Origin: Oscillospiraceae bacterium
Lineage (GTDB): Bacteria > Bacillota > Clostridia > Oscillospirales > Oscillospiraceae
Assembly: GCA_050944055.1 (NCBI GenBank)
Contig: JBMNQI010000001.1
Span: forward strand, 14,328-78,327
Direction: 5' to 3'
DNA length: 64,000 nucleotides
Made by a program: the position numbers and the translations under genes. This document shows positions 45,222-55,236 of the stretch, in pieces. How positions within the stretch are numbered: the stretch's first letter is position 1; each line of letters begins with the position of its first letter. The notes under the pieces were generated by a model that was not told the DNA's origin, did not search any database, and was given only the letters and a program-made list of their open reading frames with translations.

Positions 45222-46271
45222 ATGTCCGGCGCGAAAAAGGGAAGCCCGGAGAGCCCGGGCTATAGGAAGCTAAAAGAAGATATAAAGAACGGCCGGCCCG
45301 CCCGGGGCTACGTATTTTACGGCGAGGAGACCTATCTCCGCGACTACTACGCGTCGTACCTTCGTAAAATGATGACGGATAAGGCGACGGAGTGTTTTAA
45401 CTACCGTGTGCTGGACGGCGGGAATCTTAACATGGATAAGCTGGAGTCAGCAGTCGAGACCCCGCCTATGTTCTCCGAGCGCGTCTATATACCCGTATGG
45501 GATTATAATTTCTGGGCCCTGCCTGAAAACGAGCGCGAGCGTTTTACGGAGCTCATTTCAGACCTGCCGGAATACTGCTGCCTTGTTTTTTTGTTCGATA
45601 CCTTGGAGTATAAACCGGACCACCGAAAGAAAAAGCTAAGCGAGGCCGTGGATAAAAACCTCCGCGTCGTGGAGTTTAAGCGCAGGGAGGCCGGCGATCT
45701 CTACAGCTGGGTAAGGCAGAAATTCGTTCAGGCCGGCAGCGACATAGATAAAGAGCGGACGGACTACCTGATATTCCTGTGCGGCGGGCTTATGACCCTG
45801 CTTGAAAAAGAAATCGAGAAAATTGCGGCAAGGGCGGGACATCGCCTTGTAACAAAAGAGGATATAGACGCGGTCGCCGTACCCGTCGTCGAGGCCGTTG
45901 TGTTCGATTTGACAGACGCGCTGTCCAAAAACGACGCCGCGCAGGCCTTGACTGTGCTTGAGAAGCTCTTCGCCCTGCGCGAGGAGCCCATATCCCTGCT
46001 CGCCGTAATCGGGGGGCAGATGAGGAACGTCGCTCTGGCGAGGGTTGCGCTTGAAGAGGGGAAAAAGCCCTCCGAGCTTGCCGCCGCGCTGGGCTACCGT
46101 TCGGACTACCCGGCAAAAAGGCTTCTGGATACGGCGCGTCCGCTGTCGCTCAGAACCTGCCTTGAGCGCGTAAAACTGTGCGCGCAGTACGATTTACGCT
46201 TAAAAACCGCCGCCGGCAAGGAAGAAGTAATGCGGGAGCTGATTATGAAACTATGCCTCTTGTCCAAGTAG
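45222..46271 (+). CDS. holA: DNA polymerase III delta subunit
   Basis: Length, position after comEC and HolA-like N-terminal region (YVFYGEETYL) support the call. Confidence 0.8.
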   Translation: MSGAKKGSPESPGYRKLKEDIKNGRPARGYVFYGEETYLRDYYASYLRKMMTDKATECFNYRVLDGGNLNMDKLESAVETPPMFSERVYIPVWDYNFWALPENERERFTELISDLPEYCCLVFLFDTLEYKPDHRKKKLSEAVDKNLRVVEFKRREAGDLYSWVRQKFVQAGSDIDKERTDYLIFLCGGLMTLLEKEIEKIAARAGHRLVTKEDIDAVAVPVVEAVVFDLTDALSKNDAAQALTVLEKLFALREEPISLLAVIGGQMRNVALARVALEEGKKPSELAAALGYRSDYPAKRLLDTARPLSLRTCLERVKLCAQYDLRLKTAAGKEEVMRELIMKLCLLSK

Positions 46272-46843
46272 CCGAGACCGTCATCGTCGAGGGCCGGTAT
46301 GATAAAAACAAACTCTCGCAGATTATCGACGCCGTCATACTTGACACCTCAGGCTTCGGCATATTCAACGACGAAGAAAAGATAGAGCTATTCCGCCGCA
46401 TGGCGGAAAAGCGCGGCATAGTAATCCTCACGGACAGCGACGGGGCGGGCTTCCAGATCCGGAACTTCATCAAGTCGCGCGTGACGAAGGGCCGCGTGCT
46501 CCACGCCTATATACCCGACGTTTACGGCAGGGAGAGGCGTAAAAAAAAGGCGTCGAGCGAAGGAAAGCTCGGCGTCGAGGGTATGGATAGCGAGGTCATA
46601 CTAAAGGCGCTGCGAATTGCGGGAGTAACGATGGACGGGGAGGCAAAACAGCAGGCAAACGGCAGGATCACCAAATCGGACCTTTATACGCTAGGCCTTT
46701 CCGGAACCTCGGGAAGCGCCGAAAGAAGGAAGCAGCTGCTTGATAAACTTGGGCTGCCGGAGCGCATGACCGCCAATACGCTGCTCACCGTCCTCAACGC
46801 GCTCTATACCAGAGAGGAATTTATAAGTATTTCAGATAAATAA
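46253..46843 (+). CDS. rnmV: ribonuclease M5 (Toprim domain, 5S rRNA maturase)
   Basis: Toprim motifs VIVEGRYD and ILTDSDGAGFQIR. ATG at 46253 overlaps the holA end. Confidence 0.8.
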   Translation: MPLVQVAETVIVEGRYDKNKLSQIIDAVILDTSGFGIFNDEEKIELFRRMAEKRGIVILTDSDGAGFQIRNFIKSRVTKGRVLHAYIPDVYGRERRKKKASSEGKLGVEGMDSEVILKALRIAGVTMDGEAKQQANGRITKSDLYTLGLSGTSGSAERRKQLLDKLGLPERMTANTLLTVLNALYTREEFISISDK

Positions 46844-46855
46844 GGAGACACGCAG

Positions 46856-49165
46856 ATGACGGAAGCCACATACAAAAGAATACAGGCTCTGCGCGATTCG
46901 ATGCTCGGGGAGAGGGAGATAAGCCTTTGCCGGCCCAGGCTTATAATGGAGTCCTATAGCGAAACCGAGGGCGAACCCGTACCGATCCGCAGGGCGAAGG
47001 CCCTGAGGAAAATTCTCAACGGCCTGCCGCTGTATATCGGACGGGACGAGCTGCTCGTCGGGCGCCTGACGGATAAAACACGCGGCTGCGTTCTAACTCC
47101 GGAGCTGAGCGAGGGCAAGTTTTCGGAAGCGACCGCCGCGCTTTCGGGGACGATGCTGCCGATACCGGAGGAGGCAAAAAAAGAGCTGCGCGAGATAGAC
47201 AAGTATTGGAGCGTGCACCCGATGAGCGGCGGAGTGAAGACCGTACTGCCGGAGGAATACGCGGCGCTGCCCGGGATAGTAGCGGGATTCGGCCCCGGAA
47301 CCGGCCACCACAGCATAGGATATGAAAAAATCCTCGGAAAAGGCGCGGCTGGACTAATCAGCGAAATAGACGCGGAGCTGTCCAAAACCGGAAATTCAGA
47401 GGAAAAAATCATAAGCCTTCAAGCTTCGAAGATTGCGCTCACCGCGCTTATAGAGCTTGCCGGACGCTATGCTAAGTACGCCGGGGAGCTGGCCGAAAAA
47501 GAGAGCGACGCTCGCCGCCGCGCGGAGCTTGAGGAGATAAAAGACATATGCTCGCGTGTCCCGGCGCACCCGGCCCGGTCTTTCCATGAGGCGATGCAGA
47601 GCATATGGTTCACCAATATGGCGCTGCTGAACGAAGAGTGGTCTGTCGGTATAGGCTTCATGCGTTTTGACCAGTATATGCTGCCTTTCTACAGGGCCGA
47701 CGTTGAAAAGGGGAAAATCGACCGGGATAAGGCCACGCTGCTTATCGCCATGCTGCTTGTCAAGACCAACGAAGAGATACCGATAATGTTCAATAACTCC
47801 ATGTCTATTAATCTCACGATAGGCGGCTGCACTCCCGCGGGCGAGTGCGCCGTGAACGAACTGAGCTATATGGTGCTTGACGCGGAGGACGCCGTTCGCC
47901 TTAACGATGAGGATATAATCGTGAGGGTCGGGCCCGAAACCCCGGAGGATTTCCTTGTCCGGGCCGCAAAAAGCGCGTATCTTCTTCACGGCAAGCTGAA
48001 ATTTGTCGGCGACCCCCTGATTATCCGCCAGTTGACGGCCGACGGCAAGCCACTTGAAATTGCGCGCAACTACTGCATAACCGGCTGCAATTCGCCTACC
48101 ATACCCGGCTGCTCGCACGATATGCCGGGCACGCTTATTAACCTTCCGTTGCTGCTGGACCTTGCGCTGCATGACGGCTATTCGCCCATGCTCGGAAAGC
48201 AGCTCGGGCCGCATACCGGAGAAGCCCGCAGATTTACGAAGTACGGCGAAGTCTGGGAGGCCTTTACAGCCCAGTGCAGGCATTTTATACCGATAATCCG
48301 CGCGGGCGACAACGCCCTGCGGGTAGTGGAGTACGAGACGCGGCCGCGCCCGCTTCACTCGGTTCTCCTCGACGGTTATATTGAACACGGCGTCGACGTG
48401 ATGAGGGGCGGCACAAAGCCTTACTTGGTTTTCGCCATGTCGCTTTCCGGCGCCCCAAACGTGGGCGATTCGCTGGCGGTTATCAAGAAGCTTGTATTTG
48501 AAGAAAAGTCGGTTACGATGAAGGAGCTTATCGACTCGCTTGACAGGGATTTTCACGGCGACGACGAGCTTCTGCATAAGATAAGAGGCGTCGCGAAATT
48601 CGGCAACAACGAGCCGTATGTCGACGGTATTGTCAACGATGTGCTGTCTCTCGGAAGCGACATAATTGCTTCGTGCCCGTGCTACCTTGACGCAAAGCCG
48701 AACGCGGCCGCCGGTGTAGTGGCCTTCAACGTGGAGTTCGGGAAACATGTCGGCACCCTGCCGGACGGCAGAGGGGCGGGCATGCCCATATCCGAAGGCG
48801 GGCTTTCGCCTTATCAGGGCCGCAACATTTCAGGTGCGACCGCGACGCTTTTATCCGTAGCCGGCATCGACCACATGAAGCTGCGCCACGGTTCAGTTCT
48901 CAACCTGCGCCTGGACCCGAAGTCTCTTGAGGGAGAGGATAAGCTGCGGAAATTCTCCGCCCTGCTCAGGACGTACTTTGACCTCGGCGGCTACCTTATC
49001 CAGTTTAACATAGTGGATACGGAGACTCTGCGCGACGCGCAGAAGCATCCGGAGAGGCACAAGGACCTTATCGTCCGCGTCGCGACATACGCGGCCTATT
49101 TCGTGGAGCTTGAAAAAAGCCTCCAGGACGATATTATAAACCGCGCGCAGGTAGGAGAGATTTAG
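46856..49165 (+). CDS. glycyl-radical-enzyme (PFL2/dehydratase-like) homolog lacking the radical glycine
   Basis: Full-length PFL-like fold (769 aa). The C-terminal fingerprint reads DLIVRVATYAAYFVEL, with Thr744 (ACA, 49085-49087) where RVxGY has Gly. The Cys loop reads ITGCNSP (Cys411, 48086-48088) rather than GCVE. Confidence 0.8.
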   Translation: MTEATYKRIQALRDSMLGEREISLCRPRLIMESYSETEGEPVPIRRAKALRKILNGLPLYIGRDELLVGRLTDKTRGCVLTPELSEGKFSEATAALSGTMLPIPEEAKKELREIDKYWSVHPMSGGVKTVLPEEYAALPGIVAGFGPGTGHHSIGYEKILGKGAAGLISEIDAELSKTGNSEEKIISLQASKIALTALIELAGRYAKYAGELAEKESDARRRAELEEIKDICSRVPAHPARSFHEAMQSIWFTNMALLNEEWSVGIGFMRFDQYMLPFYRADVEKGKIDRDKATLLIAMLLVKTNEEIPIMFNNSMSINLTIGGCTPAGECAVNELSYMVLDAEDAVRLNDEDIIVRVGPETPEDFLVRAAKSAYLLHGKLKFVGDPLIIRQLTADGKPLEIARNYCITGCNSPTIPGCSHDMPGTLINLPLLLDLALHDGYSPMLGKQLGPHTGEARRFTKYGEVWEAFTAQCRHFIPIIRAGDNALRVVEYETRPRPLHSVLLDGYIEHGVDVMRGGTKPYLVFAMSLSGAPNVGDSLAVIKKLVFEEKSVTMKELIDSLDRDFHGDDELLHKIRGVAKFGNNEPYVDGIVNDVLSLGSDIIASCPCYLDAKPNAAAGVVAFNVEFGKHVGTLPDGRGAGMPISEGGLSPYQGRNISGATATLLSVAGIDHMKLRHGSVLNLRLDPKSLEGEDKLRKFSALLRTYFDLGGYLIQFNIVDTETLRDAQKHPERHKDLIVRVATYAAYFVELEKSLQDDIINRAQVGEI

Positions 49166-49192
49166 CCTAAGCCCCGGTATCAATAGAATATA

Positions 49193-49226
49193 CTGCGCTG
49201 GCTGTTTTTGGCCGGCGCAGTTTTTT
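49193..49226 (+). terminator. intrinsic terminator after the GRE homolog
   Basis: CTGCGCTGGC (49193-49202) pairs with GCCGGCGCAG (49211-49220), followed by TTTTTT. Confidence 0.7.
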
Positions 49227-49269: not shown

Positions 49270-50535
49270 ATGCCATTATTTTCCAAAAGGAGGCGTGTCC
49301 ATATGATAAGGACAGCGGCGACCGTCCTATGCTTCATGCTTTTCCTTGTAATTATCGGAACAGTTATCGACTCCCAGCTTGATGCCGCCGCAAAGTACGG
49401 GGACGCGGGGTTTTCCGCCAATGCCGCCGCAGCGTCCTATAACCCGTATTCGGAAGATTCAGACGCCATGTTCAGGAGGCTTTTAAACCTGGATGAGGAC
49501 GACGTGCTGCTTGTCGTGGCGGGCGAAAATGTTACCGTAGGCTATTTTTGTTATTGGATTATCTATATCATAGAAAACTATTATAACGGCAGCGTCGACT
49601 GGACAAAAGACGTGGGCGGCATTTCCATATCCGAATATTTAAAAGCCATGGCACGGGACGTGGCTGCAGCAAGGTGCAATATGGAGAGGACTGCCCGTGA
49701 GAAGGGAATTGTCCTGACGGAAGATGATATCAGATCGATTGACGCTCAGATAAGCCAATTCAAAAACTATTACGGCGCAAAAGCCTGGGAGGAGGGCGTG
49801 AAATCCGGAATTATAACCGAGGGCGATTACACGGAAGACCAGAAGAAAGCGTGGATCGAAAACTGCGGCTCAATCAAATTCAGCAATCTGCTCACCTCAA
49901 TGGCAGTATCAATGGACGGCTACATATCTCTGTGCAGAGGGGATCTCTACTCAAAATACCTTGTCGATTACCTTTTTGGAGAAGGCGGCGCTTTTAAACC
50001 GTCGGAAGAGGATTTAAAAAAGTTCATTGAGGATAATCAGATTTTCTGCGCCAAACAGATATTCATTTCTGCGCAAAAAGAGGACGGCAGCCCTATTAGC
50101 GCTGAGGAAAGCGCCAGGGCGCTCAGACGGGCTCAGGAAATCCGTGCGCAGCTCAGAGCGGGCGGGGACAAAGAGGAGGATTTTACGCGCTTGATGCACG
50201 AATGCAGCGAGGACCCGGGCCTGCCCGAATACCCGAACGGTTATACATACAGGAAAGGGAGCATGATTGGCGAATTCGAAAGCGCTGTCGAGCGCCTTGA
50301 GGTCGGCGCAGTCAGCGATATTGTCGAGTCCGACCTCGGGTACCATATAATAATGCGCCTGACGGCGGTTAATGAAGACACGAAGCTAAGCTATATACAT
50401 GGCAGTTACCAGAAGCTGCTGGACAGCTGGCTGTCCTCAGTCGGCGTTGAGGAAACCGAGGCTTTTATCTCGCTCGACATTCAGGATTTCTGCGAAAAGC
50501 TGGAAGAGCTGAGAAACGAATTGAATGCGGGATAA
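49270..50535 (+). CDS. membrane-anchored peptidyl-prolyl isomerase (PrsA/SurA-like, parvulin domain)
   Basis: TM anchor IRTAATVLCFMLFLVIIG and a C-terminal parvulin motif (FESAVERLEVGAVSDIVESDLGYHIIMRL). The start at 49270 lies after the terminator T-run and a GGAGA RBS. Confidence 0.8.
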   Translation: MPLFSKRRRVHMIRTAATVLCFMLFLVIIGTVIDSQLDAAAKYGDAGFSANAAAASYNPYSEDSDAMFRRLLNLDEDDVLLVVAGENVTVGYFCYWIIYIIENYYNGSVDWTKDVGGISISEYLKAMARDVAAARCNMERTAREKGIVLTEDDIRSIDAQISQFKNYYGAKAWEEGVKSGIITEGDYTEDQKKAWIENCGSIKFSNLLTSMAVSMDGYISLCRGDLYSKYLVDYLFGEGGAFKPSEEDLKKFIEDNQIFCAKQIFISAQKEDGSPISAEESARALRRAQEIRAQLRAGGDKEEDFTRLMHECSEDPGLPEYPNGYTYRKGSMIGEFESAVERLEVGAVSDIVESDLGYHIIMRLTAVNEDTKLSYIHGSYQKLLDSWLSSVGVEETEAFISLDIQDFCEKLEELRNELNAG

Positions 50536-50682: not shown

Positions 50683-53600
50683 ATGCGATTCAGAAAAAAG
50701 AAGATTCTTTGTTTTCTACTCTCGTTCGCCTTGCTGTTTTCCCTGCTTTCAAACAGCTTGGTAGCCCTCGCGGCACTCTACGATTACGACGAAACGCTGT
50801 TGCCTGTAAAATACAGCTTTGAGGGAAGACTTGTAATCGACCAGGTCAATTACGTGGACGCGTCGAAGACTGACAGCGAGCTGGCATCGACAATCACTGA
50901 AATAATTATTGAAAACGGGGCAGACATTGAGGTTGACAGCGAGAAATACAACGCGACTCTCACGGTGGACGGTGTCGAGTGCGATATTAAACCGGGAACA
51001 TATATCGGCAGCGATATCGTGATTACGCTCACCGGCAAGGCCGAAGTAATGAGCGGCTTCCCCAAGTTTGACAGGCCGCCCGGCTCGGAGCCGGAATTCA
51101 TCTACTACTACACAAGAGCGGCGGCTGTCGTAGCCGACGGCGCCCTGCAGGAGGGCTACTCGGTTCTTGAAGCGCTGATTGGCGGCGAGACTGACGGCCA
51201 ATCGTCTTCCGAAGTGACTATTAACTCACAGGGAAGCTTTTTCAACGGGTATTGGATTGACAACTCTACATACGAGATCAATAACCTGAACATGACGCTC
51301 AATGGCTACGGCGGGGACGACTTCCAGGGCTGGGGCGCCGGCATAGTCGCCACGAACGGAGCCGACGTCACGCTGAGCGATTCGTACATAGATACGACAG
51401 GGGTGATACGAACCGCAATCTGGGCCGGCGGCGAAGGCTCTAAGCTTACGGCGGAAAACGTTGTCGTGTACGCCCACCCCGACAAAAGCGCGACGCCTTA
51501 CTCGAACATGGACAACTTCGCGGCTCCCATGCTCGAGCGCGTTCCGTTCGTACTTGGCCTTGAGGGAAACATACGCGCGACAAACGTCCTCGGCAGCGCG
51601 GAGGCGGCCTACAATAACTCCCTGATCGTATCCGAGTGCTGGGGCGCGCTGTCTACAGACAGCGGCAGGCGCGGAACCAACGCGCTGACGGTTACCGACA
51701 CGCTCGCTGGGATAGGAACCATAGAGGTTGCGCAAAGCGGCGTCGAATACACGGCGACAAAGGAGATTAACGGCGTCACATACGGCTTCAACGTCTATAA
51801 AGTCGGCGAGGGAAGCGGCTATGTGACCTACTCAGACCAGGGCGTGATAGATACGTTTGACAATGTTGAATTCTATTCGCCCGACTACATAGGCATTTTG
51901 GCAGCCGGCCCCTCCACAATGATTTTCAACGACAGCTACGGTTTCTCAGACAGAATCGGATTCATGTCTCACCAGAGCGAAAACGGTGTGCTCACTATTA
52001 ACGGCGGAAGCTTCGACGTTGCCGACACATTCGTAATGGTCAAAAGCGGCACGCCGAATAAAGCCATCATAGACGTAAGCATAAACGGCGCGGATATAAA
52101 TATCTTCGGAGACAATCCTCAAAGCGGCGTCATATTGCAGCTTATGGAGACGGACGACGCGGGCGGCCCCGGCGTCACCTCATACATAATAGACGACAAG
52201 ACGCTCGACGAGATAAAGGAAATGACATCCGGCGGCGACATTGCCGCTGCAACGGCCAGTTTCACCGATGTGGAGCTGGAAGGCGATATATATAACTCCA
52301 TCTATACATTCGACCAGCCTCTTGACGTCACGCTTGAAAACTCCGCGATTACGGGCGTAATCTCCTCATCGGTAGCCACGCACGTGGATGAAAACGGGGA
52401 ACCGATGGACGGGCAAACCGTTACGGCGGGCGGCGACGACTATCTTGCCATAGGGCGCATTGTCAACGAGGCATGCGAGACGGTAAGAAACCCCGTTAAC
52501 CTGAAGCTTACGAACAGCACATGGAAGGTAACCGGAACTTCATATCTTGCCTCACTTGAGCTTGACGCCGATTCCGAGGTAGTGGGCGCAGGTTACGATA
52601 TGGTAATTATGACAGTCGACGGCGTGGAAACGCCCATCGAAGCGGGCGAAAAATATATAGGCGAAATAGTCATAACAACTTTAAGCGACTATGTCGTGGA
52701 CCACGAGGGCGGCTCTATTCATGAAACGGTACCGACATATACGGGCTACGCGACTTCGTTTAAAGGCCGAGGTGAGGAAGACTACAGCGTCGGCTACTAT
52801 ATTAGCGGCGGCAGCATAGTCGCGGATAAGTCGCTTATACCCGAAGCAGACGAGCAAGTTTCCAGGCTTGACATTGACCTCTTTGTTTACGGTGACGAAC
52901 CGTTCAACACCGTGCTCGCAAAAGGTGAGGGAACCGACATAACGCTCACAGGCAAAATTGAGGTTCGCGACGACGGCGACGGCTCGAAGGCCTCCGATTT
53001 CTCGGCCAGAGGCGCCGCGATAACAGCCACTGACTACGCGACGGTAAGAGTCGAAGACATGGAAATATATACGGAGGGCTTCGTCAGGGCCGCTTTGATA
53101 TCGGACGAAGAAGCGGACCTGTTCGTCAAAAACTCGAAGATTACGGCGATGGGCGCCAACCCTCTAACAGAGGCGTATCCTGGCTATAAAAACAGCGCCA
53201 TTATGCAGCTTATGATCTCGCCTCCGTGGGTTTTGGGCATTCAGGGCGGAGCGCGCACGGCCAATATGCTCGGCAAAAACTCCTCGCTCTCGGTAATAGG
53301 CTCCGATATATCGTCGGGCGGCTGGGGCGTGCTATCCACGGACTCCGGCAGTAATTTCAGAATGAACGTCGTTGATTCGACGCTGTCCATTCTGCCCGAA
53401 TCCGAAGGCGGGATGTCCGCCGGGCCCTTCATCTACGGTGACAAATACGGCTCCGGCTACGGCACCTACATCATAGGCAATGCCCAGGAATACTTCTACG
53501 GAGTAAACTTCGAGGGCATGACGTACGCTTCGATTCTGACGGGCGGCGACGCCTATTACCAGTCGTCCAGCGGAAATATTCTTCTTGAGGACCCGTACGG

Positions 53601-55236
53601 ACTTGACCTTGAAACGGTCGAAGGCAAAGGCAATGTCACTGCCATAAACACAGTTTTCGGCTTCATGGCGCATAACAACGGCTCAATAAACGTGCTTGAC
53701 GGTACGATTGTAAATACGGAAGAGGCCACGTTCCTCTATAAAGCCGGAAATGTTGACTTCGTAGCGGATGAAGCATTGCTCAAACCCGGCTCCGGCATCA
53801 TCCTGCAGATGATCGACAACGACGATAGTACGGTCGGCGCGTCGATGGGCGCGGGCGGGCCGGTATTCAACACGGTTTTCCATGAAGACGAGGGCTGGCC
53901 GTCCGAAAACGGCAACGTAACCGATCCTTCAAACGTGCCTCCCGGGCCTGGCGGCGGGAAAAACGAGGTTACGCTGACACTGACTAACGGCGATTACGAA
54001 GGCGACGTGTACAACGGCACCGGCTACTATAACCAGCCGGGCGACTCGCTCAGCGTCACTGTCGGCGAGAATGCAAAGCTGAAAGGCGTCATATCCCTGA
54101 CCGAAACGCGCCATATTGACGAGAACGGCGAGCAGAACACATACTTTACAATCAACGAGTATTATTACCTCGGCCATGTCGAGAACAAACTCTATAATAA
54201 CGGGAACAGCACGCTGTCCGTCACGCTGGAGGACGGTGCTGTCTGGACTGTAACAGGTACGAATTATCTGACAAAACTGTATGTCGAAAGCGGCAGCTCG
54301 ATAAATGCCCCGTCGGGCTACAGTGTGGCCATGACTGTTGACGGTGTCTCGACGAAGCTTGAGGCTGGAAAGACGTATGAGGGCAATATCGTGCTCTCAC
54401 TGGTCAAATCTTCTTTCGGCGGCTATACCGACGGAACGACCGTTCAGTCCTATAAAATCACGGCTGCCGCGGGAACGGGCGGCACGATTACGCCTTCAAG
54501 CGCTGTGGTGACAAGAGGCGGCAGCGCGACGTTTACAATCAAAGCGAACGAAGGCTATCGCATATCCGACGTCCTGGTGGACGGCGCGAGCGTCGGCGCG
54601 GTCGCGAGCTATACATTCAGCAACGTGACGGGCGCCCATACGATAGAAGCGAGGTTCAGTACGGAGGAAGAAGAGGAGCCCGTTTGGATTAATCCTTTCG
54701 TAGACGTTGATGAGGACGACTGGTTCTATGAAAGCGTTGCCTTCGTCGTGCAGAGAGGCCTGTTCAAAGGCATATCGGCTGATGAGTTTAACCCGAAAGG
54801 TGAAATGACAAGAGCGATGCTTGTAACCGTGCTGTACAGGCTTTCCGGGGAAATTGGCGGGGGAGAGAGCTCATTCGACGACGTGCCGAGCGGCGTTTGG
54901 TATTCCGACGCTGTCGCCTGGGCGGCGGACAGCGGCATAGTCAGCGGCGTCGGAAACAATAAATTCGACCCGAACGGCAGCATAACCAGGGAGCAGGCCG
55001 CGGTGATGCTTTACAATATGGCAGTATATCTGGGACTGGACGTCAGCGAATCCGGCAGCCTTGCGGGCTTCAGCGACAGTTTGGATCTCTCCGGCTGGGC
55101 GGAAGAAGCCATGAAATGGGCAGTCGGAGCGGGCCTGTTTGAAGGCAGCGACGGAAAGCTCAACCCGGGCGGGAACGCCACGCGCGCAGAGCTTGCAAAG
55201 CTGCTTATGTATTTCATTTCAGAAGTTATTGAATAA
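50683..55236 (+). CDS. large secreted cell-surface protein with tandemly duplicated core, InlB-B-repeat-like domain and three C-terminal SLH domains
   Basis: Signal peptide MRFRKKKILCFLLSFALLFSLLSNSLVALAA. The C-terminus carries three SLH repeats (FVDVDEDDWFYESVAFVV..., FDDVPSGVWYSDAVAWAA..., FSDSLDLSGWAEEAMKWAV...). Confidence 0.85.
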   Translation: MRFRKKKILCFLLSFALLFSLLSNSLVALAALYDYDETLLPVKYSFEGRLVIDQVNYVDASKTDSELASTITEIIIENGADIEVDSEKYNATLTVDGVECDIKPGTYIGSDIVITLTGKAEVMSGFPKFDRPPGSEPEFIYYYTRAAAVVADGALQEGYSVLEALIGGETDGQSSSEVTINSQGSFFNGYWIDNSTYEINNLNMTLNGYGGDDFQGWGAGIVATNGADVTLSDSYIDTTGVIRTAIWAGGEGSKLTAENVVVYAHPDKSATPYSNMDNFAAPMLERVPFVLGLEGNIRATNVLGSAEAAYNNSLIVSECWGALSTDSGRRGTNALTVTDTLAGIGTIEVAQSGVEYTATKEINGVTYGFNVYKVGEGSGYVTYSDQGVIDTFDNVEFYSPDYIGILAAGPSTMIFNDSYGFSDRIGFMSHQSENGVLTINGGSFDVADTFVMVKSGTPNKAIIDVSINGADINIFGDNPQSGVILQLMETDDAGGPGVTSYIIDDKTLDEIKEMTSGGDIAAATASFTDVELEGDIYNSIYTFDQPLDVTLENSAITGVISSSVATHVDENGEPMDGQTVTAGGDDYLAIGRIVNEACETVRNPVNLKLTNSTWKVTGTSYLASLELDADSEVVGAGYDMVIMTVDGVETPIEAGEKYIGEIVITTLSDYVVDHEGGSIHETVPTYTGYATSFKGRGEEDYSVGYYISGGSIVADKSLIPEADEQVSRLDIDLFVYGDEPFNTVLAKGEGTDITLTGKIEVRDDGDGSKASDFSARGAAITATDYATVRVEDMEIYTEGFVRAALISDEEADLFVKNSKITAMGANPLTEAYPGYKNSAIMQLMISPPWVLGIQGGARTANMLGKNSSLSVIGSDISSGGWGVLSTDSGSNFRMNVVDSTLSILPESEGGMSAGPFIYGDKYGSGYGTYIIGNAQEYFYGVNFEGMTYASILTGGDAYYQSSSGNILLEDPYGLDLETVEGKGNVTAINTVFGFMAHNNGSINVLDGTIVNTEEATFLYKAGNVDFVADEALLKPGSGIILQMIDNDDSTVGASMGAGGPVFNTVFHEDEGWPSENGNVTDPSNVPPGPGGGKNEVTLTLTNGDYEGDVYNGTGYYNQPGDSLSVTVGENAKLKGVISLTETRHIDENGEQNTYFTINEYYYLGHVENKLYNNGNSTLSVTLEDGAVWTVTGTNYLTKLYVESGSSINAPSGYSVAMTVDGVSTKLEAGKTYEGNIVLSLVKSSFGGYTDGTTVQSYKITAAAGTGGTITPSSAVVTRGGSATFTIKANEGYRISDVLVDGASVGAVASYTFSNVTGAHTIEARFSTEEEEEPVWINPFVDVDEDDWFYESVAFVVQRGLFKGISADEFNPKGEMTRAMLVTVLYRLSGEIGGGESSFDDVPSGVWYSDAVAWAADSGIVSGVGNNKFDPNGSITREQAAVMLYNMAVYLGLDVSESGSLAGFSDSLDLSGWAEEAMKWAVGAGLFEGSDGKLNPGGNATRAELAKLLMYFISEVIE

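What the first reader, a model, noticed from the sequence alone, without database searches (positions are those of the whole stretch)
46856..49165. Glycyl-radical-enzyme homolog with Thr in place of the radical glycine, an altered Cys loop and no neighbouring activase
The 769-aa protein aligns end to end with PFL2-type glycyl radical enzymes (dehydratase/lyase class). Its C-terminal fingerprint reads VRVATYAAYFVEL, where all active GREs have RVxG[YF]. The Thr codon ACA (49085-49087) differs from any Gly codon (GGN) at two positions, so a single sequencing error is unlikely. The catalytic loop keeps the Cys (ITGCNSP, Cys411) but lacks the Glu found two residues later in GCVE-type enzymes. No radical-SAM activating enzyme gene is adjacent; the neighbours are rnmV and a PrsA-like foldase. 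The gene has its own RBS and terminator and an intact frame, so it does not look like a decaying pseudogene. It could be a catalytically dead GRE co-opted for another role, or an enzyme using different chemistry.
Basis: partly seen in the sequence, partly recalled or inferred. Interest (0 to 1): 0.6.

Follow-up and report, generated by a model that had tools for sequence, protein, structure and literature searches.

The report
Orphan threonyl radical enzyme gene
This gene encodes a relative of the oxygen-sensitive glycyl radical enzymes with a conserved threonine in place of the radical glycine. It belongs to the "threonyl radical enzyme" class first described in 2024, so it is probably a working radical enzyme switched on by an activase encoded elsewhere in the genome, not a dead enzyme or a new kind of protein.

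Summary
ORF 46856-49165 encodes a 769-aa PFL2-type protein with RVATY (Thr744, ACA 49085-49087) in place of RVAGY. Its Cys loop reads GCNSP (Cys411, no Glu), and no activase lies on its contig.

The interpretation as a dead or co-opted enzyme is not supported. The 47 closest homologs all carry Thr and the Cys, and they form one clade (SH-aLRT 99). That clade includes proteins from organisms listed as threonyl radical enzymes (TREs) by Fu et al., JACS 2024. That paper showed by EPR that a dedicated activase (TRE-AE) installs a stable threonyl C-alpha radical.

The same genome carries four more TREs in tandem, followed by one TRE-AE-type activase, on contig C52. This gene is therefore most likely an unlinked fifth TRE activated in trans.

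Orphan TREs are a minority elsewhere: 4 of 23 loci with full flanks, and all three of their genomes that were searched have a TRE-AE.

The protein is intact, keeps 11 of 12 TRE-specific signature residues, has native codon usage and shows no rate acceleration. It does have four small loop deletions.

Its substrate is unknown, as for all TREs. Verdict: a new member of a known kind. An earlier finding of this scan reached the same class assignment on another genome.

The parts
46856..49165 (+). Threonyl radical enzyme (TRE) gene, 769 aa (P0001)
   Evidence: ORF and translation. PF02901 plus PF01228. Lies inside the monophyletic Thr clade. AF2 model has pLDDT 90.8 and TM 0.95 to 1r8w.
49073..49102 (+). 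Radical-site fingerprint VRVATYAAYF (residues 740-749). Thr744 codon ACA is at 49085-49087.
   Evidence: Aligned with RVAGYSAQF of 1r8w. Thr is present in 47 of 47 clade members. DNA read directly. Thr744 sits at the turn between model strands 739-742 and 745-748.
48077..48097 (+). Cys loop ITGCNSP (residues 408-414). Catalytic Cys411 codon is at 48086-48088. Ser413 replaces the Glu of GCVE eliminases.
   Evidence: Cys is invariant in the TRE alignment. Position 413 is S/T in 35 of 47 TREs and E in 81% of the Gly clade.
46842..46848 (+). Ribosome-binding site AAGGAGA, 7 nt before the ATG, overlapping the rnmV stop codon
49192..49231 (+). Intrinsic terminator (13-bp stem, 8 G-C pairs, T run) after the TRE gene
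46280..46843 (+). rnmV (RNase M5-like, DUF4093), 12 nt upstream. Probably co-transcribed with the TRE gene.
   Evidence: Pfam. No terminator-like site on the + strand between rnmV and the TRE gene. holA-rnmV synteny is kept in 18 of 19 relatives' loci, without a TRE within about 1.5 kb downstream.
45222..46271 (+). holA (DNA polymerase III delta), start of the conserved holA-rnmV pair
   Evidence: Pfam; synteny
49303..50535 (+). PrsA-like PPIC-type foldase, downstream neighbour, not part of the TRE system
   Evidence: Pfam PF00639

Best explanation
[quoted passage not shown] By analogy with the characterised Flavonifractor plautii enzymes, a radical-SAM activase abstracts the C-alpha hydrogen of Thr744. 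The resulting stable backbone radical is relayed to Cys411, and the thiyl radical starts catalysis on a small-molecule substrate. The fold points to an elimination-type reaction, but without the usual Glu base. This copy has been separated from its activase. It sits behind holA-rnmV with its own RBS and terminator. It is most likely activated in trans by the single TRE-type activase on contig C52 (12578-13495), which already follows four tandem TRE paralogs. Shown here: class membership, an intact gene, and a TRE-type activase in the genome. Taken from the literature: the radical chemistry. Inferred: trans-activation and the reaction type. The substrate is unknown.
For: The Thr/Cys alignment is unambiguous. 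All 43 database homologs at 38-52% identity and the four own paralogs carry RV[AS]T[YFW] plus the Cys. The Thr group is one clade (SH-aLRT 99), with P0001 nested inside. The clade holds loci from Neomoorella (Moorella) sp. SLA38, Lawsonibacter hominis NSJ-51 and Firmicutes CTSoil_081, organisms listed as TRE sources in Table S3 of Fu et al. 2024. Fu et al. show threonyl radical formation by EPR and evidence for a thiyl radical. The Cys-to-Thr spacing is 333 residues, as in FpTRE1 (C437/T770). P0001 keeps K380, K382, N657, V333 and the other TRE-specific columns, 11 of 12, and 130 of 142 TRE-conserved columns. Its terminal branch (0.50) equals that of its activase-linked sister lineage (0.47). 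GC3 is 0.695, like its neighbours. The C52 activase is 51-63% identical to TRE-adjacent activases and 34-45% identical to GRE-adjacent ones, and it falls in the TRE-AE clade (SH-aLRT 99). Other orphan TREs exist: 4 of 23 loci with full flanks. All three of their genomes that were searched carry a TRE-AE elsewhere. The radical domain of P0001 is 71% identical to that of paralog C52_T2, more than to its own sister proteins (66%).
Against: No activase lies within 10 kb on either side of the gene, and none of the 20 listed activase-model matches lies on its 81-kb contig, whereas Fu et al. report that all AAREs lie near one. Fu et al. also found activases to be selective, so trans-activation of a 41-49% identical paralog is unproven. 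P0001 is the shortest TRE. It has four small deletions (after residues 97, 147, 178 and 310) in the least confident parts of the model. It also has substitutions at otherwise conserved positions (G313N, D488L, C508Y). No ortholog above 52% identity was found in any database or in 40 relatives, so purifying selection could not be measured.
Confidence: 0.8

Rival explanations
1. It is a relict paralog. After being moved away from its activase and pathway genes, the gene is no longer activated and is drifting toward loss, although the frame is still open.
For: It is in an orphan position with unrelated housekeeping neighbours. Relatives keep holA-rnmV without a TRE. It has four lineage-specific deletions and 12 of 142 conserved columns changed, the 5th lowest retention of 47. 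No close orthologs were found.
Against: The 769-codon frame is intact, with a strong RBS and a terminator. Branch length is not accelerated relative to the activase-linked sister. The radical loop, Cys loop and 11 of 12 TRE signature residues are kept. Composition is fully ameliorated. The AF2 model is confident. A TRE that really is decaying looks different: the second copy in L094 is broken into four frames.
Confidence: 0.12
2. It is a non-radical, co-opted protein. It keeps the GRE fold but works without any radical, for example as a binding or scaffold protein or as a partner subunit of the other TREs.
For: It has no local activase and lacks the Glu base of the eliminases. Fu et al. saw only a weak TRE1-TRE2 interaction, so hetero-oligomers are conceivable.
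Against: The features taken as signs of inactivity (Thr, missing Glu) are shared by the whole TRE clade, which is experimentally radical-competent. Thr744 and Cys411 are invariant in the clade. A TRE-type activase is present in the genome.
Confidence: 0.06
3. It is a sequencing or assembly artefact, or the true glycine loop has been mis-assigned.
For: None found.
Against: ACA differs from GGN at two positions. The same Thr is present in 46 other homologs, including four paralogs in this genome. The alignment to solved GREs is continuous through the loop. No other RVxG motif exists in the protein.
Confidence: 0.01

Closest known systems
Threonyl radical enzymes FpTRE1/FpTRE2 with FpTRE-AE of Flavonifractor plautii (aminoacyl radical enzymes; Fu et al., J Am Chem Soc 2024, PMC11528403)
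   Same: Same PFL-like plus Gly_radical architecture, with Thr in the RVxG[FWY] fingerprint and a conserved catalytic Cys 333 residues upstream. It belongs to the same monophyletic Thr clade as proteins from organisms in the paper's Table S3. The genome encodes a ferredoxin-domain radical-SAM activase of the TRE-AE clade. Several TREs share one activase.
   Different: This copy is not encoded near any activase, whereas the paper reports all AAREs near one. The genome has five TREs for one activase (four in tandem plus this orphan), against the usual two. The protein is about 20 residues shorter because of four loop deletions. No biochemical data exist for this protein.
B12-independent glycerol dehydratase (PDB 1r8w) and 1,2-propanediol dehydratase (5i2g, 9rcp): GRE 1,2-eliminases
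   Same: These are the best sequence and fold matches (phmmer E 4e-126; Foldseek TM 0.95, rmsd 2.0 A, 34% identity). They share the ten-stranded barrel with the Cys and radical loops at hairpin tips.
   Different: The radical Gly is replaced by Thr. GCVEP is replaced by GCNSP, so the Glu base is absent. The segment aligned to Asp447 of 1r8w is gapped. TRE-specific residues K380, K382 and N657 replace L/M, A and D.
Alanyl and serinyl radical enzymes (AREs, SREs) of the same 2024 study
   Same: They are non-glycine backbone-radical GRE homologs with dedicated activases.
   Different: They carry a different radical residue and form separate clades. Four Ala-type homologs among my hits (P0044, P0062, P0065, P0076) fall outside the Thr clade.

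Membership tests
Threonyl radical enzymes (TRE, AARE class; Fu et al. 2024) | GRE superfamily architecture and fold (PFL-like barrel plus C-terminal radical domain) | tested here: met
   PF02901 and PF01228. AF2 pLDDT 90.8 and TM 0.95 to 1r8w.
Threonyl radical enzymes (TRE, AARE class; Fu et al. 2024) | Thr at the radical position of the RVxG[FWY] fingerprint | tested here: met
   RVATY, Thr744
Threonyl radical enzymes (TRE, AARE class; Fu et al. 2024) | Conserved catalytic Cys in the Cys loop | tested here: met
   Cys411 aligns with Cys433 of 1r8w and is invariant in 43 TREs.
Threonyl radical enzymes (TRE, AARE class; Fu et al. 2024) | Placement inside the monophyletic TRE clade | tested here: met
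   47 Thr-type rows lie on one side of a branch (SH-aLRT 99), with P0001 nested inside. The clade includes loci from organisms in Table S3 of the paper.
Threonyl radical enzymes (TRE, AARE class; Fu et al. 2024) | Encoded next to a dedicated radical-SAM activase (TRE-AE) | tested here: not met
   No activase within 10 kb on either side of the gene, and none of the 20 listed activase-model matches lies on contig C1. A TRE-AE-type gene exists on contig C52 of the same genome. This is a genomic habit of the class, not a property of the protein. In my survey, 4 of 23 other TRE loci with full flanks also lack one.
Threonyl radical enzymes (TRE, AARE class; Fu et al. 2024) | Formation of a stable Thr C-alpha radical on activation | not testable with these tools
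   Requires anaerobic reconstitution and EPR.
Canonical glycyl radical enzymes (PFL2/eliminase type, TIGR01774) | Radical glycine in RVxG[FWY] | tested here: not met
   Thr744 occupies this position. The TIGR01774 score of 501.6 bits is below the 678.2 cut-off.
Canonical glycyl radical enzymes (PFL2/eliminase type, TIGR01774) | GCVE Cys loop with the Glu general base of 1,2-eliminases | tested here: not met
   The loop is GCNSP. Glu is present in 81% of the Gly clade and in only 2 of 47 of the Thr clade at this column.

The most novel reading that the evidence does not exclude
The orphan copy, stripped of its activase, regulator and transporter and placed in a housekeeping holA-rnmV transcription unit, may have left the radical-enzyme lifestyle. 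It could work without activation, for example as a constitutive non-radical enzyme or as a hetero-oligomer partner that modulates the four clustered TREs. That would be the first case of a backbone-radical enzyme scaffold reused without a radical.
Probability: 0.08. Interest if true: 0.6.

Novelty: new member of a known kind. Interest (0 to 1): 0.3.

Why it matters
Threonyl radical enzymes were recognised only in 2024, and as of a June 2026 review none has an assigned reaction (PMC13450708). This genome is a compact 2.2-Mb example with five TREs and a single activase, one of them unlinked. It is a natural test of whether one TRE-AE can serve several diverged TREs in trans. It also shows that adjacency to an activase is not a safe criterion when mining for such enzymes. 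For annotation, it is a reminder that a missing radical glycine in a GRE homolog should not be read as inactivity.

Tried and rejected

2. dN/dS: not possible. The closest homolog in 5.8 billion proteins is 52% identical, and none of 40 relatives has an ortholog above 49%. I used relative branch length and retention of conserved columns instead.

3. My first neighbourhood survey used greedy ORF calling and missed several activases, for example in L095 and L079. I replaced it with tblastn. Orphan counts come only.

4. Thr744-Cys411 distance in the AF2 model: coordinates are not exposed to the Python box. Only secondary-structure placement at the two hairpin tips could be read.

5. Direct comparison with FpTRE1/2 sequences: they are not retrievable by accession in these tools. 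I linked through organisms in Table S3 instead.

6. Function from context: the window's neighbours (holA, rnmV, PrsA-like foldase, SLH protein) are uninformative.

7. Sequencing error and a mis-assigned glycine loop were both rejected.

Full report
**Observation.** The ORF at 46856-49165 (+) is intact and encodes 769 residues. Pfam finds PFL-like (PF02901, residues 7-629, E 7e-149) and Gly_radical (PF01228, residues 648-750, E 1e-26). NCBIfam places it nearest the PFL2/glycerol dehydratase subfamily, but below every curated cut-off (TIGR01774: 501.6 bits against 678.2).

Against solved structures the best match is B12-independent glycerol dehydratase 1r8w (E 4e-126). The alignment is continuous: LIVRVATYAAYFVEL lies on LIVRVAGYSAQFISL, and CITGCNSP lies on GIIGCVEP. 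The Thr codon ACA is at 49085-49087, and the Cys411 codon is at 48086-48088. An AAGGAGA RBS overlaps the stop codon of the upstream gene. A 13-bp-stem terminator follows at 49192-49221. The neighbours are holA, an RNase M5-like gene (DUF4093), a PPIC-type foldase and a large SLH-domain protein. Every factual element of the finding is confirmed.

**The Thr is a family trait, not a lesion.** A search of 5.8 billion proteins returned no close ortholog; the best hit is 52% identical. Every one of the 43 hits at 38-52% identity carries RV[AS]T[YFW] at this position and keeps the Cys. Canonical RVAG appears only below about 39% identity.

In a maximum-likelihood tree of 125 sequences, the 47 Thr-type proteins form one side of a branch (SH-aLRT 99), with the window's protein nested well inside. 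Columns that separate this clade from the Gly clade include:
- K380 and K382 (a GKLKF motif, 100% in the Thr clade against 5% and 1%)
- N657 (100% in the Thr clade; Asp in 86% of the Gly clade)
- V333
- Ser/Thr instead of Glu two residues after the Cys

The window's protein has 11 of these 12 signature residues.

**The family is already described.** Fu et al. (J Am Chem Soc 2024, PMC11528403) reported 'aminoacyl radical enzymes', GRE homologs with Ala, Ser or Thr at the radical position. For the two Flavonifractor plautii threonyl radical enzymes (TREs), they showed by X- and Q-band EPR that a dedicated radical-SAM activase (TRE-AE) installs a stable carbon-centred radical. They assigned it to the Thr C-alpha, in 20-28% of monomers. 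The Cys-to-Ser variant still forms the radical. [quoted passage not shown]

Their Table S3 lists TREs from Moorella sp. SLA38, Lawsonibacter hominis NSJ-51 and Firmicutes CTSoil_081. Loci from these organisms are in my Thr clade set (L052, L051, L050/L066). FpTRE1 has Cys437 and Thr770. Here the residues are Cys411 and Thr744, the same spacing of 333. A June 2026 review states that no AARE function has yet been elucidated (PMC13450708). An earlier finding of this scan on another genome reached the same class assignment.

**The 'missing' activase.** The window's genome (2.23 Mb, 116 contigs) has six PFL-like genes:
- a canonical PFL (RVSGY) with PflA on contig C7
- this gene on C1
- four tandem paralogs on C52 (2104-4458, 5402-7801, 7813-10176, 10199-12565), all with RVAT[YF]

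The C52 paralogs are followed directly by a 305-aa radical-SAM activase with a ferredoxin insert (C52:12578-13495; TIGR02494 322 bits).

I surveyed 78 loci from GTDB species genomes. Activases next to Thr-type enzymes are 51-63% identical to the C52 activase. Activases next to Gly-type enzymes are 34-45% identical. The two groups separate on a tree by one branch with SH-aLRT 99, and the C52 protein lies in the TRE-AE group. So the genome has exactly one TRE-type activase and five TREs.

The radical domain of the window's protein (residues 700-769) is 71% identical to that of paralog C52_T2. That is more than to its own phylogenetic sisters (66%). This fits recognition by the same activase but does not prove it.

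**Is orphan status unusual?** Fu et al. state that all AAREs they found lie near an activase. In my survey, 23 TRE loci had about 9-10 kb on both sides, and four of them (L049, L050, L063, L065) have no activase in the locus. L065 lies about 15 kb from the TRE-AE of L053 on the same chromosome. The genomes holding L049, L050 and L063 each encode one or more TRE-AE-type proteins elsewhere (54-61% identical to the C52 protein). Orphan TREs are therefore a real minority pattern, and they occur with a TRE-AE in the genome.

The closest relatives of the window's protein are activase-linked. P0003 is followed by a 305-aa radical-SAM gene. L047 (51% identity) sits in a module of LysR, solute-binding protein, TRE, TRE-AE and fumarate-reductase-like flavoprotein. 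P0002 has the same LysR and binding protein upstream. The orphan state here is therefore derived.

In 19 relatives' loci around rnmV, holA lies next to rnmV in 18, and none has a TRE within about 1.5 kb downstream. None of 40 relatives has an ortholog above 49% identity. So the placement is specific to this lineage.

**Is it still functional?**

Evidence for:
- The frame is intact, with an RBS and a terminator.
- GC3 is 0.695, the same as its neighbours and the C52 paralogs.
- The terminal branch length of 0.50 equals that of the activase-linked sister lineage at 0.47.
- It keeps 130 of 142 columns that are at least 90% conserved among TREs.
- The AF2 model is confident (pLDDT 90.8, pTM 0.92). 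Thr744 and Cys411 sit at the tips of two beta-hairpins, as in GREs. The model has TM 0.95 to 1r8w.

Evidence against:
- That retention is the fifth lowest of 47.
- The protein is the shortest TRE. It has four deletions (4, 6, 4 and 8 residues after positions 97, 147, 178 and 310) that fall in the least confident parts of the model.
- G313, D488 and C508 are substituted.

A TRE that really is decaying looks different: the second copy in L094 is split over four frames. I judge the gene functional but remodelled around the active-site periphery, possibly for a different substrate.

**Mechanism.** Shown here:
- membership of the class
- conservation of the radical and thiyl residues
- a TRE-type activase in the genome

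Taken from the literature: C-alpha hydrogen abstraction from Thr by the activase, and storage of a backbone radical.

Inferred:
- The C52 activase acts in trans on this protein.
- The radical is passed to Cys411.
- The reaction is an elimination-like transformation. The fold and nearest characterised relatives are 1,2-eliminases, but the Glu base is absent from almost the whole clade, so the acid-base chemistry must differ.

The substrate is unknown, and the window's context gives no hint.

**Verdict.** The interpretation as a dead or co-opted enzyme is not supported; 'different chemistry' is closer. The gene is a new member of a known, recently described class. It has one modest peculiarity: an unlinked fifth TRE in a genome with one activase.

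Noticed in passing
Own genome contig C52:74-15642 (outside the window): The cluster contains two LysR regulators, TRE1, a RidA/L-PSP gene on the opposite strand, TRE2, TRE3, TRE4 and one TRE-AE, followed by what look like indolepyruvate-ferredoxin-oxidoreductase (iorB/iorA) genes by my reading of their N-termini, which I did not test. Four TREs per activase exceeds the 'two TREs per AE' reported in 2024. RidA hints at an imine or enamine product.
   Followed up: partly
Loci L047-L098 and L101 (53 TRE loci including the own genome's): Several protein families recur within 6 kb of TREs: LysR (12 loci), an Oxidored_FMN plus Pyr_redox_2 enoate-reductase-like protein of about 700 aa (11), a UGSC-family 564-aa protein (8), TRAP DctP (7) and DctQM (5), an FMN_red plus LVIVD protein (7), an apparent short-chain dehydrogenase (6), an apparent aldo/keto reductase (6), and HpcH/HpaI aldolase (4). 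The LysR, dehydrogenase and aldo/keto reductase labels are from reading the sequences, not from a family search. This may point to carboxylate substrates and reducible products for the class.
   Followed up: partly
Own genome C45:10409-14208 and C28:8610-9755: The genome encodes a 59%-identical homolog of the fumarate-reductase-like flavoprotein that follows the TRE-AE in the sister module L047. It sits next to a 695-aa gene that looks enoate-reductase-like by its N-terminus. A 49%-identical homolog of that module's solute-binding protein is on another contig. The pathway partners of this TRE's subclade may be present but dispersed.
   Followed up: partly
L085, L049, L054, L055/L056, L059, L067, L094: Thr-type enzymes occur well outside Bacillota. 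They were found in MAGs labelled Bathyarchaeia, Chloroflexia, Dehalococcoidales, Acidobacteriota, Desulfobacteraceae and Actinomycetes.
   Followed up: no
L094:16349-18707: A second Thr-type gene in an Actinomycetes MAG is broken into four reading frames. It is an apparent TRE pseudogene next to an intact TRE and a short activase match.
   Followed up: no
P0044, P0062, P0065, P0076: Four homologs carry Ala at the radical position (RVAAY), so they are alanyl-radical-enzyme candidates. In my quick tree they need two changes of state (one Gly-type row sits among them), but a single origin is not excluded.
   Followed up: no
window 50683-55236 (+): A 1517-aa secreted protein with three C-terminal SLH domains and a long repetitive N-terminal region without Pfam matches lies two genes downstream of the TRE.
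   Followed up: no
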